Source of the DNA: Candidatus Falkowbacteria bacterium RIFOXYC2_FULL_36_12
GTDB taxonomy: Bacteria; Patescibacteriota; Patescibacteriia; UBA11705
Assembly: GCA_001778235.1 (NCBI GenBank)
Contig: MFGJ01000001.1
Location: forward strand, 5,152 to 69,151
Direction: 5' to 3'
Length of the DNA: 64,000 bases
Part shown: in pieces, positions 5,455-63,102 of the stretch
How the letters are laid out: each line of letters starts with the position of its first letter
How positions within the stretch are numbered: the first letter of the stretch is position 1
The notes under the pieces: model-generated
Told to the model about the DNA's origin: nothing
Databases searched by the model: none
What the model saw: the letters and a program-made list of their open reading frames with translations, nothing else
Made by a program: the position numbers and the translations under genes

Positions 5455-5895
5455 AAACATAAACTACCAGTGATAGCTAGTGTGGGCGTTTAAAGGCGAA
5501 GCCGTTGAAAGTAGTAGGCATCAGTTTAATCTAAATGTAAGTTGTTGTTTTGCTAAAGTGAGTTATTTTGAGATTGAGTGATTGATTTCGCTTTGCGAGC
5601 TACTTTTGACACCCTGCCTACCGGCAGGCAGGCAAAAGTAGCCAAAAGTGCTGGGGGGATTCAATGCGAATTGAAATGATTATCTCTCGTGCATTGATTA
5701 CGCGCAGAATCCCCCCAGACCTGCCTTCATCAAGATTATGGCAGGCAAGCCCCGATGCTTGGCATGTTCGTGGGGATGAATAATAAAGTAATTGCTTAAT
5801 ACGGTGGAAAATGAATTGCAGGTGATTAAATTATATAAAGATGGAGGCCTTTGCCCGAAAGATAGAAACTACCAGTTGCTATGCTGGTGGTTTTT
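5455..5895. repeat. Dispersed hairpin-rich repeat element, copy 1.
   Basis: It shares long blocks with 18040..18660: TTGAAAGTAGT-GG...TAATTTAAATGTAAGT-GTT--TGTT-GCTAAAG, GTGATTGAT, a CCTGCCTACCGGCAGGCAGG palindrome, GGGGGGATTC...GAATCCCCCC inverted repeats, and CATGTTCGTGGGG. It is flanked by imperfect direct repeats of AAACTACCAGT at 5461 and 5867. Confidence 0.7.
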
Positions 5896-5956: not shown

Positions 5957-5963
5957 GATGTTG

Positions 5964-6562
5964 GTTCCAAATGAGTAGTTCTGTCGCCCCCCCACTAAAA
6001 TTTATGTTTTATGTTTACCTTTTACAAAGCTTAAAGGATAAAAAACTTTATATTGGTTATACAAATGATTTAAGAAGAAGATTTGCTGAACATAATAAAG
6101 GTGAATCTAAGTCAACAAGAAATAGAAGACCTTTTAGATTGGTTTACTATGAAGCCTTTTTATCTCAAATTGATGCAAAAAACAGGGAACGGAAATTAAA
6201 ACTATTCAAAAATACTTACAACCACTTGAAAAAACGGATAGTAAATAGTCTTTTAGAACATAAATTTTAGTGGGGGGGAGGAAAGTCCGAACACTCACAC
6301 TTTGGTGTAGAATGGTAGCGGGTAATTCCCGTCGATTGGCTAGATTTATCATGTCAATCAGAGGTGCGAGCAGTGACGTCAAATTGAGAAATTAATTTGA
6401 ATCCCTTTGGGGATAATCTCTTTCGAAAGATAGAGAGTGAAACGGCTAAATCCTTACTTGAGTGCAAGAGCAAATTAGGTAGCTCGCTTGAACCTACAAG
6501 CAATTGTAGGGCTAGATAGATGACAGTTAAAACAGAATTCGGCTTACTCACTTGTTTGGAAC
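5964..6562 (+). ncRNA. rnpB: RNase P RNA (bacterial type A) with a ~290-nt expansion of helix P3 that contains an ORF.
   Basis: P4 5' strand GGAGGAAAGTCCGAACAC at 6279-6296. GCAAGAGCAAATTAGG matches the GCAAGGCCAAAUAGG region. GGGCTAGATAGATGACAG...ACAGAATTCGGCTTAC matches GGCCUAGAUGAAUGAC...ACAGAACCCGGCUUA. P1 pairs GGTTCCAAATGAG with CTCACTTGTTTGGAACC. A terminator follows at 6570-6596 (GTGACGGCGTCAC plus a T-run). Confidence 0.85.
6004..6270 (+). CDS. GIY-YIG nuclease family protein (UPF0213 / YhbQ-like, 88 aa) lying inside the RNase P RNA P3 helix.
   Basis: MFYVYLLQSLKDKKLYIGYTNDLRRRFAEHNKGESKSTRNRRPFRLVYYEAFL... matches the small GIY-YIG (YhbQ/COG2827) pattern. The ORF sits exactly in the loop of a perfect 20-bp stem (5987-6006 pairs with 6259-6278), so its ATG pairs with the CAT just upstream of its stop. 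The track start at 5971 would read through the rnpB P1/P2 strands, so 6004 is preferred. Confidence 0.75.
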   Translation: MFYVYLLQSLKDKKLYIGYTNDLRRRFAEHNKGESKSTRNRRPFRLVYYEAFLSQIDAKNRERKLKLFKNTYNHLKKRIVNSLLEHKF

Positions 6563-6654
6563 CAAAAAAAGATAGTGACGGCGTCACTGTTTTTTTATTT
6601 GAAAAAACATTAATTTTTAAGTATAATATCTGTAGTTATTTATTTAAATTTATT

Positions 6655-10324: not shown

Positions 10325-10385
10325 CAAAATTTTTCGAATAAGATCATCAATGTATGGTCTTTTTTGTTTGATGTGAATATATATA

Positions 10386-10806
10386 GTTTCCACGAATTAC
10401 GAATATGCTAAGTTTCCACGAATAACGAATCTGCCACCTGCCTACGCTGACTTCAGCTTCGGCAGGCAGGCGAATCTACAAATTGAGGTGAATGATGAAT
10501 GGTTTCCACGAATAACGAATTTGCCACGAATCTACAAATTGAGGTGAATGATGAGTAGTTTCCACAAATAACAAATCTGCCACGAATCTACAAATTGAGG
10601 TGAATGATGAATAGTTTCCACGAATTGCGAATCTGCCACGAATCTACAAATTGAGGTGAATGATGAGTAGTTTCCACAAATAACAAATCTGCCACGAATC
10701 TACAAATTGAGATGAATGATGAATGGTTTCCACGAATAACGAATCTGCCACCTGCCTACGCTGACTTCAGCTTCGGCAGGCAGGCGAATCTACAAATTGA
10801 GTTGTG
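10386..10806. repeat. Tandem array of six ~56-bp direct repeats (plus one truncated unit). The first and last full units each carry a 33-bp palindrome insertion.
   Basis: The unit GTTTCCACGAATAACGAATCTGCCACGAATCTACAAATTGAGGTGAATGATGAAT(A/G) starts at 10412, 10502, 10558, 10614, 10670 and 10726. Units 1 and 6 contain CTGCCTACGCTGACTTCAGCTTCGGCAGGCAGG. There are no unique spacers, so this is not CRISPR. Confidence 0.85.
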
Positions 10807-12096: not shown

Positions 12097-12150
12097 CGAG
12101 AACAGCGAGTAAAGCAAGTACAGCGAGAACAGCGAGTACAGCAAGTACGG
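12097..12150. repeat. 9-bp periodic AGCGAG(N)AC repeat (six units); member of a dispersed family.
   Basis: CGAGAACAG CGAGTAAAG CAAGTACAG CGAGAACAG CGAGTACAG CAAGTACGG. Related copies occur at 33355-33405, 39458-39480, 45492-45525 and 61679-61720, and inside rpsA at 62966-63003. Confidence 0.7.
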
Positions 12151-14224: not shown

Positions 14225-14269
14225 ATATTGTTATTTGTTCATTAGAAGGTTGACCGCCTTAAGGTCAAT

Positions 14270-14342
14270 GGGCCGCTAGCTCAGTTGGTAGAGCAGCAGA
14301 CTTTTAATCTGTTGGTCATCGGTTCGATTCCGATGCGGCTCA
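14270..14342 (+). tRNA. tRNA-Lys (anticodon TTT).
   Basis: Acceptor GGGCCGC/GCGGCTC, D-arm GCTCAGTTGGTAGAGC, anticodon loop CTTTTAA, T-arm ATCGGTTCGATTCCGAT. Confidence 0.85.
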
Positions 14343-14378
14343 CCCCATTTCTTCAAGAAGCCAAAAACAGGCTTCAAG

Positions 14379-14453
14379 GCTGGCATAGCTCAATGGTAGA
14401 GCAGCTGATTTGTAATCAGCCGGTTGAGGGTTCGATTCCCTTTGCCAGCTCCA
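14379..14453 (+). tRNA. tRNA-Thr (anticodon TGT), with an encoded CCA.
   Basis: Acceptor GCTGGCA/TGCCAGC, anticodon stem GCTGA/TCAGC with loop TTTGTAA, T-arm GAGGGTTCGATTCCCTT, 3' CCA present. Confidence 0.85.
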
Positions 14454-14467
14454 TTCTTTCGTCCATT

Positions 14468-14541
<74 letters not shown>

Positions 14542-14545
14542 CACT

Positions 14546-14662
14546 GGAGGAGTGGCCGAATGGTTGAAGGCGGCGGTCTTGAAAACCGCAGGTACGCAAG
14601 TACCCAGGGGTTCTCCGCCAAAGGACGGACTAGTCCTACGGCTAGGATTCCCTCCTCCTCCG
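14546..14662 (+). tRNA. tRNA-Ser (anticodon TGA)-like gene with an apparent ~32-nt insertion in the T-arm; possibly an intron-like element or a pseudogene.
   Basis: The 5' half is canonical class II: acceptor GGAGGAG, D-arm TGGCCGAATGGTTGAAGGC, anticodon stem GCGGT/ACCGC with loop CTTGAAA, and variable arm GGTACGCAAGTACC. The acceptor 3' strand CTCCTCC lies at 14655-14661. GGGGTTC and GATTCCCTC are separated by TCCGCCAAAGGACGGACTAGTCCTACGGCTAG, making the gene 117 nt rather than about 90. Confidence 0.5.
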
Positions 14663-14737
14663 CTCGTTTGAAGGAATTTCTAAGGGAGTAAATAAACTCC
14701 CCGGGAGATAACAGCCTAAAACTGGATCTCCCGAAAT

Positions 14738-14808
14738 TGGGGCGTCGTCAAGCGGTAAGACACAGGGCTTTGGTCCCTGCATCCTAGGTTCGAATCCTAG
14801 CGCCCCAG
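14738..14808 (+). tRNA. tRNA-Gln (anticodon TTG).
   Basis: U1-A72 acceptor TGGGGCG/CGCCCCA as in E. coli tRNA-Gln. Anticodon stem CAGGG/CCCTG with loop CTTTGGT. T-arm CTAGGTTCGAATCCTAG. Confidence 0.8.
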
Positions 14809-14837
14809 CATAAATGCTAGTCACAGCAGTGACTAGA

Positions 14838-18039: not shown

Positions 18040-18660
18040 TTTTATTATTTGGACATAAATCATCAGCGACAGCTGGTGTGTGTGCTTAAAAGCGCAGCAA
18101 TTGAAAGTAGTGGTTAGCGGTGTAATTTAAATGTAAGTGGTTGATGTTGCTAAAGCAAGTTTTTTTTAGAATAAGTGATTGATAAAGCTTCGCTTGACAC
18201 TTTTTGATGGCAAAAAGTGTCCAAAAACCATTGGGGGCTTTAATTGCTACTTTTGAACACTATTTTGTGTTTTGAACACGGCAAGAAAGCCCCCAAACCC
18301 GAGGTTTACCATGTTCGTGGGGTTTAAAGTTAGTGATTGGTTTTGCTAAAGCAGGTTTTTTGAAAAAAGTGATTGATTGCCTGCCTACCCTGCCTACCGG
18401 CAGGCAGGCGGCAGGCAGGCAAAAAGGACGAACCGCCTACACTAAAGTTTCGGCGGTCAAGAAAGTTTTGGGGGTTTTAAAACAAATGCTTTTGAACATC
18501 TTCGTGTGGTTCATGACCGCGATAAACCCCCCAAACACCGAGGCTATTCATCTTAGGTGTTTTGAAATTAAATAAATGATTTTTTTGATTGATATTGCTA
18601 AAGCAAGCTTTTTTTGACCTGTGAGATAGAAACTACCTCCGTGAGCTGATGGTTTTTTAT
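18040..18660. repeat. Dispersed hairpin-rich repeat element, copy 2, containing two internal modules.
   Basis: Two modules each have GCTAAAGCA-GTTTTTT, GTGATTGAT, a hairpin, a GGGGG...CCCCC long stem, then ACCGAGG. Hairpins: GACACTTTTTGATGGCAAAAAGTGTC, then CCTGCCTACCCTGCCTACCGGCAGGCAGGCGGCAGGCAGG. Stems: GGGGGCTTT...AAAGCCCCC and GGGGGTTT...AAACCCCCC. ACCATGTTCGTGGGG and the flanking GATAGAAACTACC motif match copy 1. Track ORF 18333..18575 inside it is probably spurious. Confidence 0.7.
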
Positions 18661-33351: not shown

Positions 33352-33437
33352 AGTTTTAAGCGAGTAAAGCGAGAACAGCGAGTAAAGTTATGACTGTAGT
33401 GGCTTTATTTACTGAACTGACTGATCTTGCCTTTTAA

Positions 33438-35757: not shown

Positions 35758-35977
35758 GTAATTATATTGGCAATTAAATAAGTTATTAATATTCTATCTT
35801 AATCTAGCAAAAATGTCAATCAAATCACTTATAACTAACTGCTTTTAAATTATTAATTTTCTTAAATTATAAATTATTGACAATTCAAACCAGTTATGAT
35901 AAATTGAAGTATTGATATTTAACAATTTGAGTGTTGCAAAAGTCAACGCTGACAACCAGCAGAGGCAGGAGAAAAAC

Positions 35978-36841
35978 ATGAATACTGGCTGGAAAATTGC
36001 TATTTCTGTATTTTTTGGAGCTTTGATTGGATCATTGGTTTCAATCAACTATTCTTGGTGGATTGGCATGATTGTTGGTGGTATTGTTGGTTATCTGTCA
36101 GTAGAACCAATGGCTATTCCGAAAGCAATTGCAAAGGTTTTCAAGAGTATGTATTCAGAGTCAAACAGAAATAAATTTAAGTTTACTGGGAAAATTTTTG
36201 TATGCCTGTATTTGTCCATGTGTTTTGTGATCGTCACCCCTGTTTTTCCAATCCATGCTTTTGGTATATGGCTAGGAAAAATCACCTTACTATCATTATA
36301 TTTTTATGAATTTACCTTTTTAATAGCTGCTTTATTTTCGAGTATTGTTATAAGCATAACATTCTATGGTGAAACTTATTGGAAGTATGAAAATTATATG
36401 CTTTCAAGTTATGAGATTTCCCAAATTCCTCCAGGAATTACTCTTGTTTACTCTATGCAGAGTCCAAAAAAATATTTCAAATCATTTTTGAGAAGTTATT
36501 TTAATATTGTGACTATAATAAGTAAAGGATTTGTGATATTTTTCATTATTATGCTTCCGATGTTCATTTTTTGGAAAATGCCTGTATATATTTTCTGGAA
36601 AATTCCTATCGGCATTGGTAAGTTTACCTGGGCTGTTGTCAAGATTATTCATTGTCACAACAGAGTAATCGCGGGAATTGATGCTGTTATCTTTGCTTGT
36701 TTGGGATATGGGTTGAGTTATCTGACGCCAATGGCGCCACTGATTGGAGCTGTGATTGGTTTTGCACTAAGTAAGCTTCACTGGGAATTGGTGAGTGTGA
36801 GATGGCTAAAAGTTTGTCCGCAGAAAATTAAAAATGATTAA
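35978..36841 (+). CDS. Hypothetical integral membrane protein.
   Basis: Multiple TM helices. The ATG at 35978 has a GGAGAAAAAC RBS. A TTGACA-N17-TAAATT promoter lies at 35876-35908. Confidence 0.45.
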   Translation: MNTGWKIAISVFFGALIGSLVSINYSWWIGMIVGGIVGYLSVEPMAIPKAIAKVFKSMYSESNRNKFKFTGKIFVCLYLSMCFVIVTPVFPIHAFGIWLGKITLLSLYFYEFTFLIAALFSSIVISITFYGETYWKYENYMLSSYEISQIPPGITLVYSMQSPKKYFKSFLRSYFNIVTIISKGFVIFFIIMLPMFIFWKMPVYIFWKIPIGIGKFTWAVVKIIHCHNRVIAGIDAVIFACLGYGLSYLTPMAPLIGAVIGFALSKLHWELVSVRWLKVCPQKIKND

Positions 36842-36893
36842 ATCGCTTTATATTATAAGGTGATTTTTTTAATTATTTAATTTTACCCTTATA

Positions 36894-37167
36894 CCCTGAA
36901 ATAAATTCAGGGTGACAAGTGAGAGATCCTGAAAACAGTACCCGGAGATCCTGAAACAAGTTCAGGATGACGAGTGTAGGGTTCAGGATGACGAGTGTAG
37001 GGTTTTTGATGACGAGTGGTGTGTGGTCCCGTCACTCTGAACTTGTTTCAGAGTCTCCTGAATTGACATTAGAGGAAGGAATGGAAAAATTAATTTGAAT
37101 TTTGAAGAATTATATCCTGAAACAAGTTCAGGATGACGAGTGTAGGGTTCAGGGTGACAAGTGTGGG
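36894..37167. repeat. Intergenic array of palindromic hairpin repeats: CCTGAAACAAGTTCAGG followed by (G/A)TGAC(G/A)AGTGTAGGG.
   Basis: Units such as ATCCTGAAACAAGTTCAGGATGACGAGTGTAGGGTTCAGGATGACGAGTGTAGGG appear in both orientations (CTGAACTTGTTTCAG). They are followed by the GC-rich hairpin GCCGACCCGTTGCCGAGCAGCGGGTCGGC. The same family lies inside the CDS at 53985..54238. Confidence 0.8.
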
Positions 37168-37263
37168 AAATAAAAACAGCCGACCCGTTGCCGAGCAGCG
37201 GGTCGGCGGAGAGACCTAACTTTCCCTTGATTTTTTAGCAAATTTAAAGTATAATAGGCTCAT

Positions 37264-38415
37264 ATGAAATACTTTTTCCAAGTAGGAAATCATCCAAAAT
37301 TAGCTAAATCAGAGCTGGAAGCTGTGCTAAGACGAGAAAATATTGACTTTGAAATCAGTTTTGTAATTGAGAATATAATTGTACTTGAAACAAAGATTAC
37401 TTTAGAAAAAAACTTGCTGAAATTGCTGGGAGGTTTTGTGAAATTTGGGATTATTGAATTTGAAACCACAAGAAATAATTTACAAAAAGATATTTTTCAG
37501 TACTTGATAAAATACAATTATGAAAAAATATTTTTTGGTTTGAATAATTTCACATCGGAAAATTTGAAACTGAATAAAATCGGACTAGAGCTAAAAAAAG
37601 AATTGAAAAATAGTAATAAAAATTGCCGTTTTGTCAGTGGGGTGGAAAATCCGCTCTCAAGTGTGATAATTCACAAAAATAATCTAGACAAAGAAAATGG
37701 CTTTGATTTAAATTTTATTTCTAGTGCAGATACAATATTAGTGGGAAGAACTCTGGCAGTGCAAGATTATAATTTTTATTCAAAAATTGATTATGGTAGG
37801 CCAGCCAAAGATGATCTGTCAGGTATGTTGCCACCAAAAGTCAGTCAAATAATGATCAACTTAGCTGAAATAAAAAACAACAAATTAAAAGTTCTTGATC
37901 CATTTTGTGGTTCGGGCACAATCCTACAAATGGCAGCACTTCAAGGTGTGATAAATTTAATTGGATATGACAATTCTGTAAAAGCCATAAAAGATACAAC
38001 TGAAAATCTTGATTGGCTGAAAAAATCTTTTGATTTGAAATTTAATCTTGAATTGGAGACTTTGGGGATTGAAAATCTTGAGCAAAAAATCAAAGCTGGT
38101 AGCATAGATGTCGTTGTGACAGAACCTTATCTTGGTCCAGCAATGAGAGGAAGTGAAGGAAATGACTTTGTAAAAAAAGTGCAGGAAGAATTAAGTCAGC
38201 TTTATACCAAAATGTTTACGCAATTGGAAAAAGCCTTGAAATCATCTGGAGTGATGATAATAATAATTCCAGAGATACATATAAAAGGAAAAATATACCA
38301 ATTCAACATAAATGAATTGATTGGGAACAAATTACAAGTAGAAAATGAGTGGCAATATTCAAGAGAAAAGCAAAGAGTTGTCAGAAATATTTACAAAATA
38401 AAAAAAGTGACCTGA
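37264..38415 (+). CDS. Putative SAM-dependent RNA methyltransferase (UPF0020 / THUMP-associated N2-G methylase-like).
   Basis: Motif I VLDPFCGSGTILQMAALQG and motif IV-like DVVVTEPYLGP in the C-terminal half. The N-terminal ~170 aa might be THUMP-like. A TATAAT at 37243-37248 lies upstream. Confidence 0.4.
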   Translation: MKYFFQVGNHPKLAKSELEAVLRRENIDFEISFVIENIIVLETKITLEKNLLKLLGGFVKFGIIEFETTRNNLQKDIFQYLIKYNYEKIFFGLNNFTSENLKLNKIGLELKKELKNSNKNCRFVSGVENPLSSVIIHKNNLDKENGFDLNFISSADTILVGRTLAVQDYNFYSKIDYGRPAKDDLSGMLPPKVSQIMINLAEIKNNKLKVLDPFCGSGTILQMAALQGVINLIGYDNSVKAIKDTTENLDWLKKSFDLKFNLELETLGIENLEQKIKAGSIDVVVTEPYLGPAMRGSEGNDFVKKVQEELSQLYTKMFTQLEKALKSSGVMIIIIPEIHIKGKIYQFNINELIGNKLQVENEWQYSREKQRVVRNIYKIKKVT

Positions 38416-45483: not shown

Positions 45484-45603
45484 ATTTTTGAAAGCGAGAA
45501 CAGCGAGTTAAGCGAGGTAAGCAAATGAAGTAAAAATGAGACTTATTTGCTGTACTAGCTGTATCAGCTGAACTGACTATATATTTATATATAATTTATT
45601 GAT

Positions 45604-51825: not shown

Positions 51826-53172
51826 TTATTTTATTTTCCTTACTATTGAATTTTTTGTGTCCAATTCCACTAAATCTCCATCTTTAAATATTTCTGTCGC
51901 CGACTTTGTCCCAACTAAACCTGGTAATTTGAATTCCCGACAGACAATGGCTGCGTGGCAGGTAATACCACCCTCATCAGTAATTACTCCAGCAGCTTTT
52001 TTCAAGGCAGGGAGCAAATTTGGTCTGGTCATTTCCGTGACAATGATTTCGCCGCCTTTCATTTTCTTAATTTTTTCATTATGATTCCCAGCATCTTTAT
52101 ATGACAAAACTAACACCGGCCCGCTGACTTTACCGGAGGATACTGCAAATCCTTTTAATTGATCTCTTGATTTTTCATTCGCTTGGCCTGTTAAAATTTT
52201 CAATTTGTCTTCAGCTTCTTGCCCCCAATAGGTTTTAATTTTCTTTTGCTGATAAATTTTTAAACATCCTGTTAACCTTTTTTTAAGTTCGTCTCGACTT
52301 AGTTTTTTCGCTTTTCCAAAAAGTAGATTCTTTAATTCTGAGTAGAAATACAGCCGGCCATCGTCAGGCATCAAACCTACTCGCTCGTAAATTAAACTCA
52401 ATAGATAATCAAACCAAATCATCCCCGGCATATAAGTTAAGCGAATTTGATATCTTCTAAATTTTATCCGTGTCAAACTATCAATTATTTTTTTTATTTT
52501 TTCATTCGGATTTAATTGATTCATCAAATCAACTTTTTCCCGAATATCATTCTTCCCCTTCTCAAATAATTGCCCTTCATTTAAAAGTTCTTTCCAGTTT
52601 TTTGTTTGCTTCAAAACTTCGGTATATGACTGCGACATGAGCGGAGACGCCTCATTATAAATGAACTTTTTTTCGCTCAACAGCACCGTATCAATCGATT
52701 CGTTAATGTCTGCCACATTTTTGGTCGTTAACCACTCTTTGAGGTCATTTTCCAAAACACAATATTTATACTCATCTATAAAACTATAAACCACTACAAA
52801 CTGATCAAAAATTTCAAAATGTTTTTCAAAACGCAACCAAAGTTCTTGGTGATTCATAATCTCAAAATCAAGGTGCGCCATGTCTTTTATCAACAAAAAA
52901 TAATTGCTGATCGCCTGTTCCACTGCTTTTTCTACCAGCTGAATATTTTTTGCTTTAACAAAATATACCCGACCAAAATTTTCTGCCCGCGCCAATTCTT
53001 CTTCGGGCAAATACCATTCTGCATAATTCTTCTTTTGGTACATGGCTGACTGATTCGTCCCGAAACCAAACCTCTTTTGGCTTTTTTCACCTGTGGCTCT
53101 CAATATATTCCCCAAGTCAGCCAGCAGCAACCCTTCTTCTAACCACACTTTTATCCACTTAAAGTTTTTCAT
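51826..53172 (-). CDS. PEP-utilizing-enzyme mobile (phosphohistidine swivel) domain protein with a ~340-aa N-terminal putative substrate-binding region.
   Basis: The C-terminal GGITCHAAIVCREFKLPGLVG matches the GG-TSHAAI-ARE phosphohistidine-domain motif of PEP synthase, PPDK and rifampin phosphotransferase. Its start overlaps the MurE-like stop by 4 bp. Confidence 0.6.
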   Translation of the reverse strand: MKNFKWIKVWLEEGLLLADLGNILRATGEKSQKRFGFGTNQSAMYQKKNYAEWYLPEEELARAENFGRVYFVKAKNIQLVEKAVEQAISNYFLLIKDMAHLDFEIMNHQELWLRFEKHFEIFDQFVVVYSFIDEYKYCVLENDLKEWLTTKNVADINESIDTVLLSEKKFIYNEASPLMSQSYTEVLKQTKNWKELLNEGQLFEKGKNDIREKVDLMNQLNPNEKIKKIIDSLTRIKFRRYQIRLTYMPGMIWFDYLLSLIYERVGLMPDDGRLYFYSELKNLLFGKAKKLSRDELKKRLTGCLKIYQQKKIKTYWGQEAEDKLKILTGQANEKSRDQLKGFAVSSGKVSGPVLVLSYKDAGNHNEKIKKMKGGEIIVTEMTRPNLLPALKKAAGVITDEGGITCHAAIVCREFKLPGLVGTKSATEIFKDGDLVELDTKNSIVRKIK

Positions 53173-54791
53173 TGTTTTTTCAATAATTTTCTAACAACTT
53201 CTCGATCATCCCAAGGAATATATTTTCCGCCGGCAACGGCCATAGCTCTTTCTGAACCTTTGCCCGTGAGTAGGACTAAGTCTCCTGCCTGTGCCAAACT
53301 TAGGGCTCTTTCGATGGCGGAACGGCGGTCAAGAATTTTAAATAGATTTTGATTTTCAATTTTGCCCTTTTCGATAGCTCCGTCAGCAACTTGATTAATA
53401 ATAGTCTGCGGATCTTCATCATAAGGATCTTCATTGGTAACAATTACAATGTCAGCTTTGGATCCAGCCATGTTTCCAAGAATTGGACGGCGAGCTTTGT
53501 CTCGACCTCCGCCACAAGAACCGAGGACATGAATCAATTTTTTATAAGGCAAATCTGAATTTTTAATTTGATCCAAAGTTTCATAAAGTTTTTTCATGGA
53601 ACCTGGCTCTGGAGCATAATCGACCATAATTGAAAAATTTTGGCCTTGATTAATTAGCTCTGTGCGACCTGGAACAACTGGAACAGATTCAAGGGCTGAT
53701 TTAATTTTTGTTATTTCAATTCCTTCTTGTGTAGCAATTGCAATGGCTGGCAGAGAGTTTTCAACATTGAAGGCGCCGATGAGTTGTAAGTTGATAGTTG
53801 TTAGATTATAGTTGAAAGATGTGCCTTTGACTGAAACCTTAATGTCAGAAGCTTTGAAGTCGGCTTGCTTCTTTACGCTGAAGGTATTTTTTTTGTCAGC
53901 TGGGAAATTGAGAAAATATTCAGCGTGTTCATCGTCGATGTTTATAATTGAGATTTTTGGGATTGTTTTATTTTTATCATCATACCCTGAAACAAGTTCA
54001 GGGTGACAAGTGGGAGATCCTGAAACAAGTTCAGGGTGACAAGTGGGAGATCCTGAAACAAGTTCAGGATGACAAGTGTGGTGGGTGTGGAGTGTGCTTT
54101 GGGAAGTAGGTGTTTCAGGATGACAAGTGGGAGATCCTGAAACAAGTTCAGGATGACAAGTGTGGTAGGTGTGGAGTGTGCTTTGGGGAGTAGGTGTTTC
54201 AGGATGACAAGTGGGGTGTTCGGGGTGACAAGTGTGGGACTCTGACTGACAAGCGATAATATCCGAATAATTCTTTTTTGGCATTTTTGTCAGGTGTGAG
54301 AAGAATTTCCCTTTGGCTTTTTTATAATTTTCAAAACCGCCATGTGCCTCTATGTGCTCTGGAGTTAAGTTGGTAAAAACCGCATAATCATAATTTATTG
54401 CAATGTGCCGGTATTGTTCAACTCCTTGAGATGAAGTTTCAATTACAGCATATTTACAACCAGCATCAACCATTTTCTTTAGATATTTCTGAAGTTGAAA
54501 GCGACCGAGCATGGTCATTTTTTTATCATTTAATTTTTCTTCATTTGCTACCTTGAATAAAACTGTAGATAAAGCGCCAACTTTGTCTCCGCCAGCTTCA
54601 AGCGCTTTGGAAATAAGACTAACCGTAGTTGATTTGCCATTGGTGCCGGTAACTCCGATGACGATCATTTTATTGGAAGGATTACCATAAATAAAAGAAC
54701 CAAAAACCGCTAAACTCTTGTAATAAAACTGGAGTAAAAAATTGGGAATTAATTTTTTTATAAGATTTTTCATATAATTAAATACTATCAT
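53169..54791 (-). CDS. murE: Mur ligase family protein (MurE-like UDP-N-acetylmuramoyl-tripeptide ligase) carrying an in-frame ~85-aa repeat-encoded insertion.
   Basis: P-loop GVTGTNGKSTT, TPEHIEAHGGFENYKKAKGKFF, ISIINIDDEHA, GRTELINQGQNFSIMVDYA, and C-terminal DRRSAIERALSLAQAGDLVLLTGKGSE. The N-terminal domain is short (P-loop at residue ~50). Residues ~185-270 (HTCHPEHPTCHPETPTPQSTLHTYHTCHPELVSGSPTCHPE...) are encoded by the hairpin repeat array. Confidence 0.65.
   Translation of the reverse strand: MIVFNYMKNLIKKLIPNFLLQFYYKSLAVFGSFIYGNPSNKMIVIGVTGTNGKSTTVSLISKALEAGGDKVGALSTVLFKVANEEKLNDKKMTMLGRFQLQKYLKKMVDAGCKYAVIETSSQGVEQYRHIAINYDYAVFTNLTPEHIEAHGGFENYKKAKGKFFSHLTKMPKKNYSDIIACQSESHTCHPEHPTCHPETPTPQSTLHTYHTCHPELVSGSPTCHPETPTSQSTLHTHHTCHPELVSGSPTCHPELVSGSPTCHPELVSGYDDKNKTIPKISIINIDDEHAEYFLNFPADKKNTFSVKKQADFKASDIKVSVKGTSFNYNLTTINLQLIGAFNVENSLPAIAIATQEGIEITKIKSALESVPVVPGRTELINQGQNFSIMVDYAPEPGSMKKLYETLDQIKNSDLPYKKLIHVLGSCGGGRDKARRPILGNMAGSKADIVIVTNEDPYDEDPQTIINQVADGAIEKGKIENQNLFKILDRRSAIERALSLAQAGDLVLLTGKGSERAMAVAGGKYIPWDDREVVRKLLKKQ
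53985..54238. repeat. Hairpin repeat array (same family as 36894..37167) inside the MurE-like CDS, with the reading frame preserved.
   Basis: Three units of the 33-bp AGATCCTGAAACAAGTTCAGGGTGACAAGTGGG, then two 66-bp variants (…GTGTGGTGGGTGTGGAGTGTGCTTTGGGAAGTAGGTGTTTCAGGATGACAAGTGGG…). All unit lengths are multiples of 3. Confidence 0.85.
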
Positions 54792-61459: not shown

Positions 61460-61830
61460 GATGAATTCATCTCCTTGTCTGTTTGGCGTTGTTTGTAGGG
61501 AACAATAATAGTTTATTTTATAATTTATTTTAGAATTTGTCAAGTCTAGCTGGTGATGAGTAAAAACATATCACGATTCTACCAATACTTGACATTTAAT
61601 ATAATTCATATTAAACTTAAGTCACTTATTTATAATCTAGCTACAAGCTAGACTTGCCCGAACAAGAATAAAGCGAGGTCAGCGAGTACAGCGAGTAAAG
61701 TTATGACTGTACTTGATCCTCCAGCTTAATCAATAACGGGCGGGTTAATCATTTATTTGGTAAATCCGCTAAAGGCGGAATTTTTATTACTTATTTTAAT
61801 AAAAGCTCTACGGATAGACCAAAAATTTAT

Positions 61831-63102
61831 ATGGTAGCAACTAAATCAAAAAAAATAGCCCAGAAAAAAGCTTTGCAGGAAAAAGACCTTAATTCAAAAA
61901 TGGCGCAACTTTTGGAAAAAGATATTACAAACTTCAAACCACTTGAAATGAATCAATTGGTAAAAGGCACTGTGATCAATGCGACAAAAACTGAAGTCTT
62001 GGTTGATGTTGAGGGCATCACTACTGGGATAATCCGAGGCAAAGAATTGTCTTATGATACCGAAGAACAACAGCAACTAAAAGTTGGTGACAATGTTGAA
62101 GCTACGGTGATTGATCTTGAAAATGAAATCGGCATGCTTGAACTGTCATTTCGTTTTGCCAGTCATCAGAAAGCATGGGAAAATTTGGATATATTCAGAC
62201 AAGAGAATAAAATTGTTAGCGCTAAAATTCTTGATGCCAATAAAGGTGGTTTGTTAATCACTGTCAATGGAGTAAAAGGATTTTTGCCTGTATCACAATT
62301 AAATCCTGAACATTATCCTCGAGTCCCTGGCGGAGATAAAAATAAAATTTTGGATAAACTGAAAAGTTATGTCGGAGAATCATTTGAAGCTAAAGTTATT
62401 GATGTTGATGAATCTCAAGAAAAATTAATTGTTTCAGAAAAAGCTGCCTGGGAAGAAACCCAGAAAGATGTCCTTGATAAATACAAAGTCGGAGATGTAA
62501 TTGACGGAACAATAACAGCTGTAACTGATTTTGGAATCTTTATTAAATTCGGTGAAAACCTTGAAGGATTGGTTCATATTTCTGAACTTGCTTGGCAGAG
62601 AATTGATAACCCAGCTGAACTATTCAAGGTTGGACAAGATATCAAAGCAGAAATTATCAATATTGAAGGCTCAAAGATTTTCTTGTCAATCAAAAAACTT
62701 CAGACTGACCCATGGACTGACATTGAAAAGAAATACAAGGTTGGTCAATTGGTAAAAGGTAAAGTATTAAAAGTAAATCCATTTGGATTATTTGTCGAGC
62801 TAGACAAGGACATCCACGGACTTGCTCATGTGTCTGAACTGTCAAATAAAACCATTACCAACACTGAAGATATTGCCAAGCCTGGAGATGAAAAAGAATT
62901 TAAGATTGTTTCAATAGAACCAAATGAACATAGACTTGGTTTGAGCTTGAAAGATCTTGAGGGAAAAGCGAGTTCAGCGAGTACAGTAAATACAGCAAGT
63001 AAAGATGCTGTAGAGGAGAAAGAGACTGAAAAAGTTGAGGATGTTAAGCAGAAGGAACATGTTGAAACAACTGAAGACGAAAAAACAGTAGATAAAGAAT
63101 AA
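61831..63102 (+). CDS. rpsA: 30S ribosomal protein S1 (four S1 domains) with a Glu/Lys-rich C-terminal tail.
   Basis: Repeated S1 OB-fold signatures (GxVxG…GLxHxSE…). The tail codons KASSASTVNTASK are encoded by an AGCGAG-type 9-mer repeat at 62966-63003. Confidence 0.85.
   Translation: MVATKSKKIAQKKALQEKDLNSKMAQLLEKDITNFKPLEMNQLVKGTVINATKTEVLVDVEGITTGIIRGKELSYDTEEQQQLKVGDNVEATVIDLENEIGMLELSFRFASHQKAWENLDIFRQENKIVSAKILDANKGGLLITVNGVKGFLPVSQLNPEHYPRVPGGDKNKILDKLKSYVGESFEAKVIDVDESQEKLIVSEKAAWEETQKDVLDKYKVGDVIDGTITAVTDFGIFIKFGENLEGLVHISELAWQRIDNPAELFKVGQDIKAEIINIEGSKIFLSIKKLQTDPWTDIEKKYKVGQLVKGKVLKVNPFGLFVELDKDIHGLAHVSELSNKTITNTEDIAKPGDEKEFKIVSIEPNEHRLGLSLKDLEGKASSASTVNTASKDAVEEKETEKVEDVKQKEHVETTEDEKTVDKE

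What the first reader, a model, noticed from the sequence alone, without database searches (positions are those of the whole stretch)
53985..54238. Palindromic hairpin repeat inserted in frame inside the MurE-like ligase; the same repeat forms an intergenic array at 36894..37167.
The repeat is CCTGAAACAAGTTCAGG (a 6-bp stem with a 5-nt loop) plus GTGACAAGTGGG. It is tandemly repeated as three 33-bp units and two 66-bp units inside the Mur ligase gene, between the HLD-HG motif and the NIDDEHA strand. All unit lengths are multiples of 3. The ORF therefore stays open and gains about 85 residues rich in His, Cys, Pro and Thr (CHPE, HTCHPELVSGSPT). The same family in both orientations makes an intergenic array 17 kb away. 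This points to a mobile, hairpin-forming mini-repeat tolerated as a protein insertion in an essential cell-wall enzyme, or to a recent insertion.
Basis: seen in the sequence. Interest (0 to 1): 0.8.

Follow-up and report, generated by a model that had tools for sequence, protein, structure and literature searches.

The report
Ssn-type hairpin repeat inside MurE
A short hairpin-forming DNA repeat has been copied in tandem, in frame, into a floppy surface loop of the essential cell-wall enzyme MurE in a Falkowbacteria (CPR) genome; in other genomes this hairpin brackets small GIY-YIG nuclease genes of the kind published as Ssn, so it is a neat example of selfish DNA tolerated inside a protein, not a new kind of system.

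Summary
Window 53984-54238 holds four complete and three half copies of the hairpin RGAYCCTGAAACAAGTTCAGGRTGAC inside murE (53169-54791, minus strand). All unit spacings are multiples of 3. A second array, colinear with the first at both ends, lies at 36893-37168.

It is an insertion. In 96 of the 120 closest MurE homologues this loop is 16 aa; here it is 113 aa. AlphaFold gives pLDDT below 50 for residues 188-270 and above 90 for most of the rest.

Five length variants (540, 529, 501 and 466 aa, plus a 540-aa form with one substitution) share an identical backbone outside the array. A 75%-identical orthologue carries one copy in the same loop and frame, and a 77%-identical one keeps a decayed half unit. 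The seed is therefore old and the amplification recent.

The exact 22-mer occurs in more than 120 genomes of many phyla, and its stem covaries. In 80 metagenome loci, GTCAY-headed hairpins, mostly this type, bracket small GIY-YIG genes. This matches the published Ssn nuclease/SRM (NTS, dRS3) system of Chenal et al. 2025, although the published SRM search pattern misses this subtype.

The same hairpin also sits in frame in Treponema GltB and MetE. The closest functional analogue is the Rickettsia palindromic element. I rate it a new variant of a known kind, of moderate interest.

The parts
53169..54791 (-). murE (UDP-MurNAc-tripeptide synthetase), 540 aa, intact ORF that hosts the array
   Evidence: ORF. 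Pfam Mur_ligase_M and Mur_ligase_C. TIGR01085 scores 343 bits, above its 257 cutoff. Residues that are invariant across 120 homologues (including G46-K53, A159 and K160) are all present here. The model matches solved MurE structures with TM 0.65-0.75.
53984..54238 (-). In-frame tandem array of the hairpin repeat. The GTCAY-headed strand is the coding strand, and the array encodes residues about 187-269 (TCHPELVSGSP units).
   Evidence: TRF finds 33-bp, 84-bp and 21-bp periods. Codon view. Spacings 33, 33, 51, 33, 51, 21. pLDDT is below 50 for residues 188-270.
53984..54007 (-). Complete hairpin 1: ACCCTGAAACAAGTTCAGGGTGAC on the + strand, read as GTCACCC...GGGT on the coding strand
54017..54040 (-). 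Complete hairpin 2, with one mismatch in the stem
54050..54073 (-). Complete hairpin 3 (ATCC...GGAT variant)
54134..54157 (-). Complete hairpin 4
54113..54124 (-). Half unit (TTTCAGGATGAC) at the end of the first 51-bp spacer block
54197..54229 (-). Two half units (TTTCAGGATGAC at 54197-54208 and GTTCGGGGTGAC at 54218-54229), 21 bp apart
54234..54254 (-). Oldest, decayed unit (GCTTGTCAGTCAGAGTCCCAC, coding ACQSESH). It matches a relic in the orthologue P0005 at 14 of 21 positions (my count by eye).
   Evidence: Codon views of the window and L208
36893..37168 (.). Second, intergenic array of the same family. Complete hairpins at 36893-36916, 36948-36971 and 37114-37137, and an inverted one at 37031-37054. 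Half units at 36981-36992, 37002-37013 and 37147-37158.
   Evidence: Colinear with the murE array at both ends. It lies between ORFs 35912-36841 and 37264-38415.

Best explanation
The repeat is a subtype of the Ssn-related-motif (SRM; NTS/dRS3-like) class of oriented hairpin repeats. These consist of a GTCAY head, a stem-loop and an RTCY tail. In other genomes this subtype forms the terminal inverted repeats around small GIY-YIG (Ssn-type) ssDNA-nuclease genes and is scattered as orphan copies.

One copy landed long ago in the loop of the MurE ATP-binding domain that joins the helix carrying the conserved A159-K160 to the SIINIDD strand. In this Falkowbacteria lineage the copy and its flank were then duplicated in tandem, probably by slippage or unequal recombination between hairpin units. 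The result is 4 complete and 3 half units.

MurE is essential, so only variants that are a multiple of 3 in length and free of stop codons survive. Two of the three frames of the GTCAY strand are open. The frame used reads CHPELVSGS.

The encoded 85 or so residues form a disordered excursion outside the Mur ligase fold, so the enzyme keeps working.

Shown:
- the anatomy of the array;
- its status as an insertion relative to orthologues;
- the predicted disorder;
- the length variants;
- the cross-phylum identity and stem covariation;
- the linkage to GIY-YIG genes in other genomes.

Inferred:
- the duplication mechanism;
- that MurE remains active;
- that an Ssn-type enzyme spreads or maintains the copies;
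- that this genome has, or once had, a cognate Ssn.
For: Insertion status:
- The loop is 16 aa in 96/120 closest homologues and 113 aa here.
- Solved MurE structures have no counterpart between query residues about 169 and 280.

Tolerance:
- AF2 mean pLDDT is 83. Residues 188-270 fall below 50 and most of the rest is above 90.
- Columns that are invariant across 120 homologues are all retained here.
- The fold matches MurE structures.

Dynamics:
- Variants of 540, 529, 501 and 466 aa, plus a P-to-S variant, are 100% identical outside the array, and all differences are whole units.
- The full-length form is present on 7 contigs from at least two assemblies, and it carries three NCBI protein accessions named for Falkowbacteria MAGs.

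Age:
- P0004 (75% identical) has a single tGTCACCCTGAACTTGTTTCAGGGTCT in the same loop and frame.
- P0005 (77% identical) keeps ACTTGTCAGGCTGAG..., a decayed half unit.
- Other orthologues carry other GTCAT/ATGAC relics in the same loop.

Family:
- The exact 22-mer is found in more than 120 genome loci across Sphingomonadales, Bacteroidota, Treponema, Patescibacteria, Gracilibacteria, Melainabacteria, Elusimicrobia and others.
- The stem covaries in 139/142 copies.
- Of 80 metagenome GIY-YIG loci, 55 have a GTCAY hairpin within 200 nt upstream, 52 within 200 nt downstream, and 44 on both sides. Density is 3.0 per kb near the gene against 0.22 per kb further away.
- The hairpin type changes with protein divergence, down to the canonical NTS GTCATTCCCGCGCAGGCGGGAATCCA.
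- The published system is described in PMC11893778.

Frame constraint:
- Spacings are all multiples of 3 in murE but not in the intergenic array.

Generality:
- The same hairpin sits in frame in Treponema GltB (between domains), Treponema MetE (twice) and a Patescibacteria PMT_2/TPR protein.
Against: - The published degenerate SRM pattern does not match this hairpin, and has no match anywhere in the window.
- No ssn gene flanked by this hairpin is present in the 64-kb window. The only GIY-YIG ORF (6004-6270) is not bracketed by it.
- Only two loci carry the repeat in 64 kb, so high copy number in this genome is not shown.
- The shorter variants could come from assembler collapse of a 254-bp tandem repeat rather than real polymorphism. 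P0002 and P0003 come from one SRA run and have no contig on record.
- The 80 GIY-YIG loci were chosen as relatives of three proteins that were themselves found beside hairpins, which is an ascertainment bias.
- The hairpin detector used was my own definition.
- MurE activity with the insert is untested.
Confidence: 0.72

Rival explanations
1. Assembly artefact: the array, or its length, results from mis-assembly of short reads across a repeat, and the true murE has no insert or only one unit.
For: The array (254 bp) is longer than typical short reads. Variants of 529, 501 and 466 aa on an identical backbone, two of them from the same run SRR3989339, are what repeat collapse would produce. P0002 and P0003 have no contig on record.
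Against: The full 540-aa form recurs on 7 contigs from at least two assemblies, and the identical array is found in three NCBI protein accessions named for Falkowbacteria MAGs. Every variant keeps at least one unit. A 75%-identical orthologue from other samples has a unit in the same loop. This rival can only affect the copy number, not the existence of the insertion.
Confidence: 0.1
2. The insert is a selected functional module of this MurE, for example a His/Cys-rich metal-binding or interaction loop, not merely tolerated selfish DNA.
For: By my count from the translation, the approximately 85 coded residues contain 7 Cys and about 14 His at regular spacing (TCHPE...). The frame has been kept over substantial divergence, since P0004 uses the same frame. 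The loop is a hotspot, with insertions in 24/120 homologues.
Against: The amino-acid composition is dictated by the hairpin sequence in one of only three open frames. The segment is absent from 96/120 orthologues and is predicted disordered. The copy number varies on an identical backbone. The same peptide occurs in unrelated proteins and in short, probably spurious ORFs. The same array also exists in non-coding DNA.
Confidence: 0.08
3. It is a REP/RAYT-type or IS200/IS605-derived palindromic element (mobilised by a Y1 HUH transposase), not an Ssn/SRM element.
For: The general look is similar: an oriented short palindrome with a conserved unpaired head, clustering into arrays like BIMEs, and doublets like REPINs in sphingomonads. 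PMC11893778 itself draws this analogy.
Against: The head is GTCAY, not GTAG. Clustering of all ORFs within 1.5 kb of 142 copies gave no recurrent protein family other than GIY-YIG, which was found in 3 loci and always adjacent. Of 80 GIY-YIG loci, 55 have the hairpin upstream and 52 downstream.
Confidence: 0.05
4. The hairpins act at the RNA or DNA level inside murE, for example as transcription pause sites, mRNA stability elements or recombination-control marks cut by Ssn, and are kept for that reason.
For: Stem covariation shows selection on the hairpin itself. Each complete unit folds as predicted in ssDNA. In Neisseria, NTS copies modulate transformation through Ssn cleavage.
Against: There is no Rfam family on either array. 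The RNA folding z-score is only -0.76. The covariation is explained by recognition by the nuclease partner wherever the element sits. Most orthologues do without the insert.
Confidence: 0.05

Closest known systems
SRM / NTS (extended dRS3) hairpin repeats partnered with Ssn GIY-YIG ssDNA nucleases (Chenal et al. 2025, Nat Commun 16:2388, PMC11893778)
   Same: It is an oriented hairpin with a non-palindromic GTCAY head and an RTCY tail, 24-27 nt long. It is present in many phyla. It brackets small single-domain GIY-YIG genes in an IS-like arrangement (hairpin, gene, inverted hairpin). The hairpin type co-varies with the nuclease lineage. Copies cluster into arrays.
   Different: The stem and loop sequence (CTGAA-CTTGT-TTCAG) is not captured by the published search pattern. 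Here the copies lie inside an essential gene, in frame and tandemly amplified, whereas NTS copies are reported to be rarely inside genes (2%). No cognate ssn gene is seen in this window. Cleavage of this subtype is untested.
Rickettsia palindromic elements (RPE; Ogata et al. 2000 Science 290:347 and 2002 Genome Res 12:808, as summarised in PMC10969869)
   Same: Palindromic selfish DNA inserted in frame into unrelated housekeeping genes, adding a peptide that is compatible with the fold of the host protein. The same element is also found in non-coding DNA (for other host genes here).
   Different: RPEs are about 100-150 bp single insertions, described in that literature from Rickettsia genomes. 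Here the unit is 33 bp, the core is shared across phyla, it is amplified into a tandem array with length variants, and it has a candidate enzymatic partner. Sequence similarity to RPEs was not tested.
REP / BIME / REPIN elements with RAYT (Y1) transposases
   Same: Short oriented palindromes with a conserved unpaired head that act as ssDNA hairpins. They form clusters and inverted doublets and flank a small domesticated nuclease or transposase gene.
   Different: The head differs (GTAG against GTCAY) and so does the enzyme family (HUH Y1 against GIY-YIG). REPs are extragenic by definition.
Intragenic MITEs such as ERIC or BOX that carry open frames (reviewed in PMC10969869)
   Same: Small non-autonomous repeats that can create in-frame fusions with host genes.
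   Different: Those are longer elements with terminal inverted repeats and target-site duplications. No target-site duplication is evident at either array here.

Membership tests
SRM / NTS hairpin repeats (Ssn-related motifs) | Conserved non-palindromic 5' head GTCWY directly abutting the hairpin, which gives the repeat an orientation | tested here: met
   All 8 complete copies in the window read GTCAY followed by the stem. In 142 copies from other genomes the RG-A-Y context on the other strand is conserved.
SRM / NTS hairpin repeats (Ssn-related motifs) | A 20-50 nt inverted repeat able to form a hairpin in ssDNA | tested here: met
   8-bp stem with a 5-nt loop. Three compensatory stem variants occur within the window. 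The seventh pair is T-A or C-G in 139/142 copies. The ssDNA fold shows the hairpins.
SRM / NTS hairpin repeats (Ssn-related motifs) | Literal match to the published degenerate search pattern HGTCWYN(0-2)YYVSBRHN(0-5)WNVSBRGN(0-2)RNCYNB | tested here: not met
   A regex built from the paper matches the canonical NTS but not the window unit or the GCTGAAC sister type, and it has no match in the window. That pattern was built by hand from 29 genomes.
SRM / NTS hairpin repeats (Ssn-related motifs) | Copies flank ssn (small single-domain GIY-YIG) genes, often on both sides in inverted orientation | tested here: met
   In other genomes: L049, L098 and L111. Of 80 metagenome loci, 55 have a hairpin upstream, 52 downstream and 44 on both sides, with 14-fold local enrichment. 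Most hairpins next to the closest relatives are of this exact type. Relatives at 50-65% identity carry the canonical NTS. In this window: not seen.
SRM / NTS hairpin repeats (Ssn-related motifs) | A cognate Ssn nuclease is encoded in the same genome, and the motif is present at high copy number | tested here: inconclusive
   Only 64 kb is available. The repeat occurs at two loci. One GIY-YIG ORF at 6004-6270 (Pfam PF01541) gives a weak tblastn match to an Ssn-type query (42% identity over 64 aa, E 2e-7), but it is not flanked by the hairpin.
SRM / NTS hairpin repeats (Ssn-related motifs) | Strand-specific binding and cleavage of ssDNA (not dsDNA or RNA) just upstream of the motif by Ssn | not testable with these tools
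   This needs purified enzyme and oligonucleotides. Published for Neisseria and Wolbachia homologues only.
Rickettsia palindromic elements (RPE) | In-frame insertion into unrelated protein-coding genes at positions compatible with the fold | tested here: met
   MurE disordered loop. GltB interdomain linker, MetE and a PMT_2/TPR protein in other genomes.
Rickettsia palindromic elements (RPE) | A single element of about 100-150 bp belonging to one of the RPE sequence families of Rickettsia | tested here: not met
   The unit is 33 bp (24-nt hairpin plus spacer) and the host is a CPR bacterium. Direct sequence comparison with RPE consensus sequences was not done.
REP / RAYT (REPIN) system | GTAG head on the palindrome and a flanked Y1 (HUH) transposase gene | tested here: not met
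   The head is GTCAY. The only protein family recurrent next to the copies is GIY-YIG. No Pfam scan of every neighbouring ORF was done.
MurE (UDP-MurNAc-L-Ala-D-Glu: diamino-acid ligase) | Mur ligase middle and C-terminal domains, family-level HMM score above its cutoff, and family-invariant residues (including G46-K53 and A159-K160) retained | tested here: met
   PF08245 and PF02875. TIGR01085 scores 343 against 257. All columns invariant across 120 homologues are conserved in the window protein. The model matches solved MurE structures. Enzyme activity was not tested.
CRISPR array | Identical repeats separated by unique spacers of similar length, usually with cas genes nearby | tested here: not met
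   The spacers are themselves repeated (AAGTGGGAG twice, and two near-identical long spacer blocks within the 51-bp units). The array lies inside an ORF.

The most novel reading that the evidence does not exclude
In-frame capture of Ssn-type hairpins may be a general, cross-phylum route by which proteins gain and vary surface loops: a bacterial-wide counterpart of the Rickettsia RPE phenomenon, driven or maintained by a ssDNA nuclease. In small CPR genomes such arrays would then make essential genes such as murE length-polymorphic within populations, and possibly subject to Ssn cleavage of the coding strand during replication, transcription or DNA uptake.
Probability: 0.2. Interest if true: 0.7.

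Novelty: new variant of a known kind. Interest (0 to 1): 0.5.

Why it matters
The finding links two literatures that have not been joined: the 2025 Ssn/SRM hairpin system and the older idea of selfish palindromes inside protein-coding genes.

- An SRM-type hairpin can live inside an essential gene, in frame, and expand into an array there.
- At least one abundant hairpin subtype, found in Sphingomonadales, Bacteroidota, Treponema and CPR, is invisible to the published SRM search pattern. Current SRM censuses therefore probably undercount.
- For annotators, it explains a recurrent class of odd peptides (CHPELVSGS, ILKQVQDD, VILNLFQDL) in hypothetical and real proteins.
- For CPR biology, it identifies one MurE loop as a repeatedly used insertion-tolerant site.

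Tried and rejected
- Rfam, at gathering thresholds on the whole window and in E-value mode on both arrays, found no credible RNA family.
- A literature search for the sequence itself, and for GIY-YIG with REP or REPIN, found nothing relevant. Searching for dRS3 with GIY-YIG found the Ssn paper.
- Clustering all ORFs within 1.5 kb of 142 hairpins, to find a linked enzyme, gave only repeat-coded peptides and 3 GIY-YIG genes. The linkage only became clear when I started from the GIY-YIG protein.
- A protein search with the insert peptide gave only 4 short ORFs, and it did not return the MurE proteins themselves, presumably because of composition filters. It is therefore useless as a census.
- DNA for the short variants P0002 and P0003 is not on record. 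Real polymorphism and assembly collapse cannot be separated.
- I looked for a target-site duplication at the two arrays and found none. The left flanks share only an AT-rich context ending in TA.
- I considered CRISPR, an intein or other excised element, and programmed bypass. All were rejected because the ORF is simply open and the spacers are repeated.
Full report
**What is there**

The window is AT-rich. Its MurE protein is identical, apart from the called start, to proteins deposited for Candidatus Falkowbacteria bacterium RIFOXYD2_FULL_35_9 and sister MAGs.

The ORF 53169-54791 (minus strand, 540 aa) is MurE:
- Pfam finds Mur_ligase_M and Mur_ligase_C.
- TIGR01085 scores 343 bits against a cutoff of 257.

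The HMM and PDB alignments are all broken in two. Nothing aligns between residues about 169 and 280.

That gap contains the repeat. On the + strand, four complete copies of A[T/C]CCTGAAACAAGTTCAGG[A/G]TGAC lie at 53984, 54017, 54050 and 54134. Three half copies ([G/T]TTC[A/G]GG[A/G]TGAC) lie at 54113, 54197 and 54218. TRF reports periods of 33, 84 (= 33 + 51) and 21 bp at 97-98% identity for the first two.

A second array of the same family lies at 36893-37168, between two ORFs. It has three direct copies, one inverted complete copy and three half copies. The core occurs 9 times in the window against 0.2 expected by chance. The two arrays are colinear over their first 100 bp or so and share the last 22 bp (GTTCrGGGTGACAAGTGTGGGA). 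They are therefore copies of one composite array, not independent growths.

**It is an insertion, and the protein should tolerate it**

Among the 120 closest homologues (59-77% identical outside the variants), the segment from L167 to K279 is 16 residues in 96 proteins. Here it is 113.

AlphaFold2 with that alignment gives a mean pLDDT of 83. Most of the Mur ligase fold scores above 90, and the only long low-confidence stretch is residues 188-270, which is exactly the repeat-coded part. The model superposes on solved MurE structures with TM 0.65-0.75.

The insertion sits after the helix that carries the invariant A159-K160 and before the SIINIDD strand. From general knowledge of Mur ligases, that lysine is the one carbamylated in the active site. 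Every residue invariant across the 120 homologues is retained.

**Frame**

On the coding strand the unit reads ACTT-GTCAYCCTGAACTTGTTTCAGGATCT-CCC, which is 33 nt and encodes TCHPELVSGSP. Spacings between successive units in murE are 33, 33, 51, 33, 51 and 21, all multiples of 3. In the intergenic array they are 55, 21, 21, 124 and 21. This fits selection for an open frame in an essential gene. Reading the hairpin in all six frames by eye, three are free of stop codons: CHPELVSGS and VILNLFQDL on one strand, and ILKQVQDD on the other.

**Dynamics and age**

The protein collection holds the same MurE backbone, 100% identical outside the array, with several array lengths:
- 540 aa;
- 540 aa with one P-to-S change inside the array;
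- 529 aa (one 33-bp unit fewer);
- 501 aa;
- 466 aa (a single unit).

The full-length form is on 7 contigs from at least two assemblies and carries three NCBI protein accessions. The two shortest forms come from one SRA run and have no contig on record. They may therefore be real population variants or collapsed assemblies.

The seed is old:
- The 75%-identical Falkowbacteria orthologue P0004 has a single tGTCACCCTGAACTTGTTTCAGGGTCT in the same loop and the same frame.
- The 77%-identical P0005 has no hairpin, but it keeps ACTTGTCAGGCTGAGGCTCTC. By my count this matches the most degenerate unit at the gene-proximal end of the window array at 14 of 21 positions.

The array thus shows an age gradient: decayed units at one end and perfect hairpins at the other.

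Twenty-four of the 120 homologues have something extra in this loop. At least two of these (P0007 and P0044) carry other GTCAT/ATGAC-type relics. This loop is a repeatedly used, insertion-tolerant site.

**What the repeat is**

The hits include Sphingomonadales, Bacteroidota, Treponema, Patescibacteria, Gracilibacteria, Melainabacteria, Elusimicrobia, Dadabacteria, Nitrospirae and others.

In the 142 copies, the base before CCTGAA covaries with the R: T-A 75 times, C-G 64 times and other combinations 3 times. The next base out is A in 125 copies. The true stem is therefore 8 bp and is under selection as a structure.

Neighbouring sister copies differ by compensated stem changes (GCTGAA..TTCAGC, TCCGAA..TTCGGA) but keep GTCAT...ATCY.

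Three of the 120 loci had a small GIY-YIG gene, each time directly bracketed by the hairpins. Starting from those proteins, a metagenome scan returned 80 loci:
- 55 have a GTCAY hairpin within 200 nt upstream, 52 within 200 nt downstream, and 44 on both sides.
- The typical layout is GTCAT-hairpin-ATCCA, about 37 nt, the ORF, about 20 nt, and then the inverted hairpin.
- Hairpin density is 3.0 per kb near the gene against 0.22 per kb elsewhere.
- As protein identity to the query falls to 50-65%, the hairpin changes to other types, including GTCATTCCCGCGCAGGCGGGAATCCA.

That last sequence is the Neisseria NTS. A literature search then showed that this system was published in 2025. Ssn is a family of small GIY-YIG (cd10448) nucleases that bind NTS/SRM hairpins in ssDNA and cut just upstream, in a strand-specific manner. 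In that study 71% of ssn homologues are flanked by SRMs. The authors note the IS-like NTS-ssnA-NTS layout and the analogy with REP/RAYT (PMC11893778).

The window repeat has the defining anatomy of an SRM, and its subtype is demonstrably Ssn-associated in other genomes. However, it does not match the published degenerate search pattern. I therefore file it as an SRM-class hairpin of a subtype not covered by that pattern.

Two caveats apply:
- My 80 loci were picked as relatives of proteins already found beside hairpins.
- The hairpin detector was my own.

The independent publication removes most of that concern.

**What is unusual**

The paper reports NTS copies to be rarely intragenic (2%). 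Here an SRM-type hairpin lies in an essential gene, in frame, tandemly amplified and length-variable.

It is not unique. The exact 22-mer also sits in frame in several other genes:
- Treponema GltB, between the Glu_synthase and GXGXG domains;
- Treponema MetE, twice, as inverted doublets;
- a Patescibacteria PMT_2/TPR protein.

Functionally, this is the Rickettsia RPE phenomenon, with a much shorter unit, a cross-phylum core and a candidate enzyme partner.

Arrays of hairpin plus short spacer, and 21-24-bp arrays of half hairpins, recur elsewhere. Local tandem growth therefore seems to be a property of the element. I infer slippage or unequal exchange between units. A role for Ssn cleavage in seeding duplications is speculation.

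**What is not shown**

- No cognate ssn gene is visible in the 64 kb. The only GIY-YIG ORF (6004-6270) is not flanked by the hairpin.
- Genome-wide copy number, MurE activity with the insert, expression of the peptide and Ssn cleavage of this subtype are all untested.
- There is no Rfam family on either array. ssDNA folding shows the hairpins (z = -2.2), while RNA folding is unremarkable (z = -0.76).

**Verdict**

The element is an instance of a recently described class, in an unusual coding, amplified context and of an uncatalogued subtype. It is a new variant of a known kind and of moderate interest.

Noticed in passing
window 5961-6567 (+), ORF 6004-6270: The RNase P RNA gene appears to carry a 267-nt insertion encoding an 88-aa GIY-YIG protein (Pfam PF01541, E 6e-17) in the terminal loop of P3. 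Rfam class A matches 6231-6562 at only 71 bits (gathering score 100, E 3e-21), so the default scan missed it. With the ORF spliced out, the 5' piece (5961-6003) pairs with the 3' end to form P1, and GCCCCCCCACUAAAA pairs with UUUUAGUGGGGGGG to form P3. No report of a bacterial RNase P RNA with such an insert turned up in one literature search.
   Followed up: partly
window 14546-14662 (+): Rfam reports a 117-nt tRNA match (38 bits) in the tRNA cluster 14269-14809. ARAGORN does not call it. It may be an intron-containing or otherwise interrupted tRNA.
   Followed up: no
window 12097-12148, 33358-33387, 45502-45522, 61672-61697, 62967-63001: Short arrays of a 9-nt unit (AGCGAGWAC and variants) recur in intergenic spacers, twice directly before AGTTATGACTGTA. 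They occur once inside the 3' part of ORF 61831-63102, where they encode KASSASTVNTASK. This is a second small repeat family that is also tolerated in frame.
   Followed up: no
window 10385-10760; also 5614-5632 and 18380-18421: A 56-bp unit is repeated five times (112-bp super-unit, 91-95% identity), bounded on both sides by CCACCTGCCTACGCTGACTTCAG. Related CCTGCCTAC...GGCAGGCAGG palindromes occur at two other intergenic sites.
   Followed up: no
MurE homologues P0038, P0041, P0048, P0053, P0057, P0066, P0101 (alignment A1, columns 340-375 and 485-560): Besides the loop studied here, two other MurE positions carry long, lineage-specific, low-complexity insertions in CPR orthologues. One follows the KK-QAD segment and the other lies between IKNSD and LPYKK. 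CPR MurE proteins therefore seem generally permissive to loop insertions.
   Followed up: no
L081 1955-4399 (Treponema sp. MetE) and L033 4236-8000 (Treponema sp. GltB): The same exact hairpin is inserted in frame in conserved metabolic enzymes of spirochaetes. MetE has two composite inserts (NCHSELDSESVNSQTLKQVQGD-type, an inverted doublet of two hairpin subtypes), and GltB has one insert in an interdomain linker.
   Followed up: partly
L082 about 2590-2680 (Bacterium BMS3Bbin05): A complete hairpin is followed by three tandem 21-bp half-hairpin units (AATAAACAAGTTCAGGGTGAC). This is the same 21-bp half-unit periodicity seen in both window arrays, which suggests a recurrent mode of local growth.
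   Followed up: no
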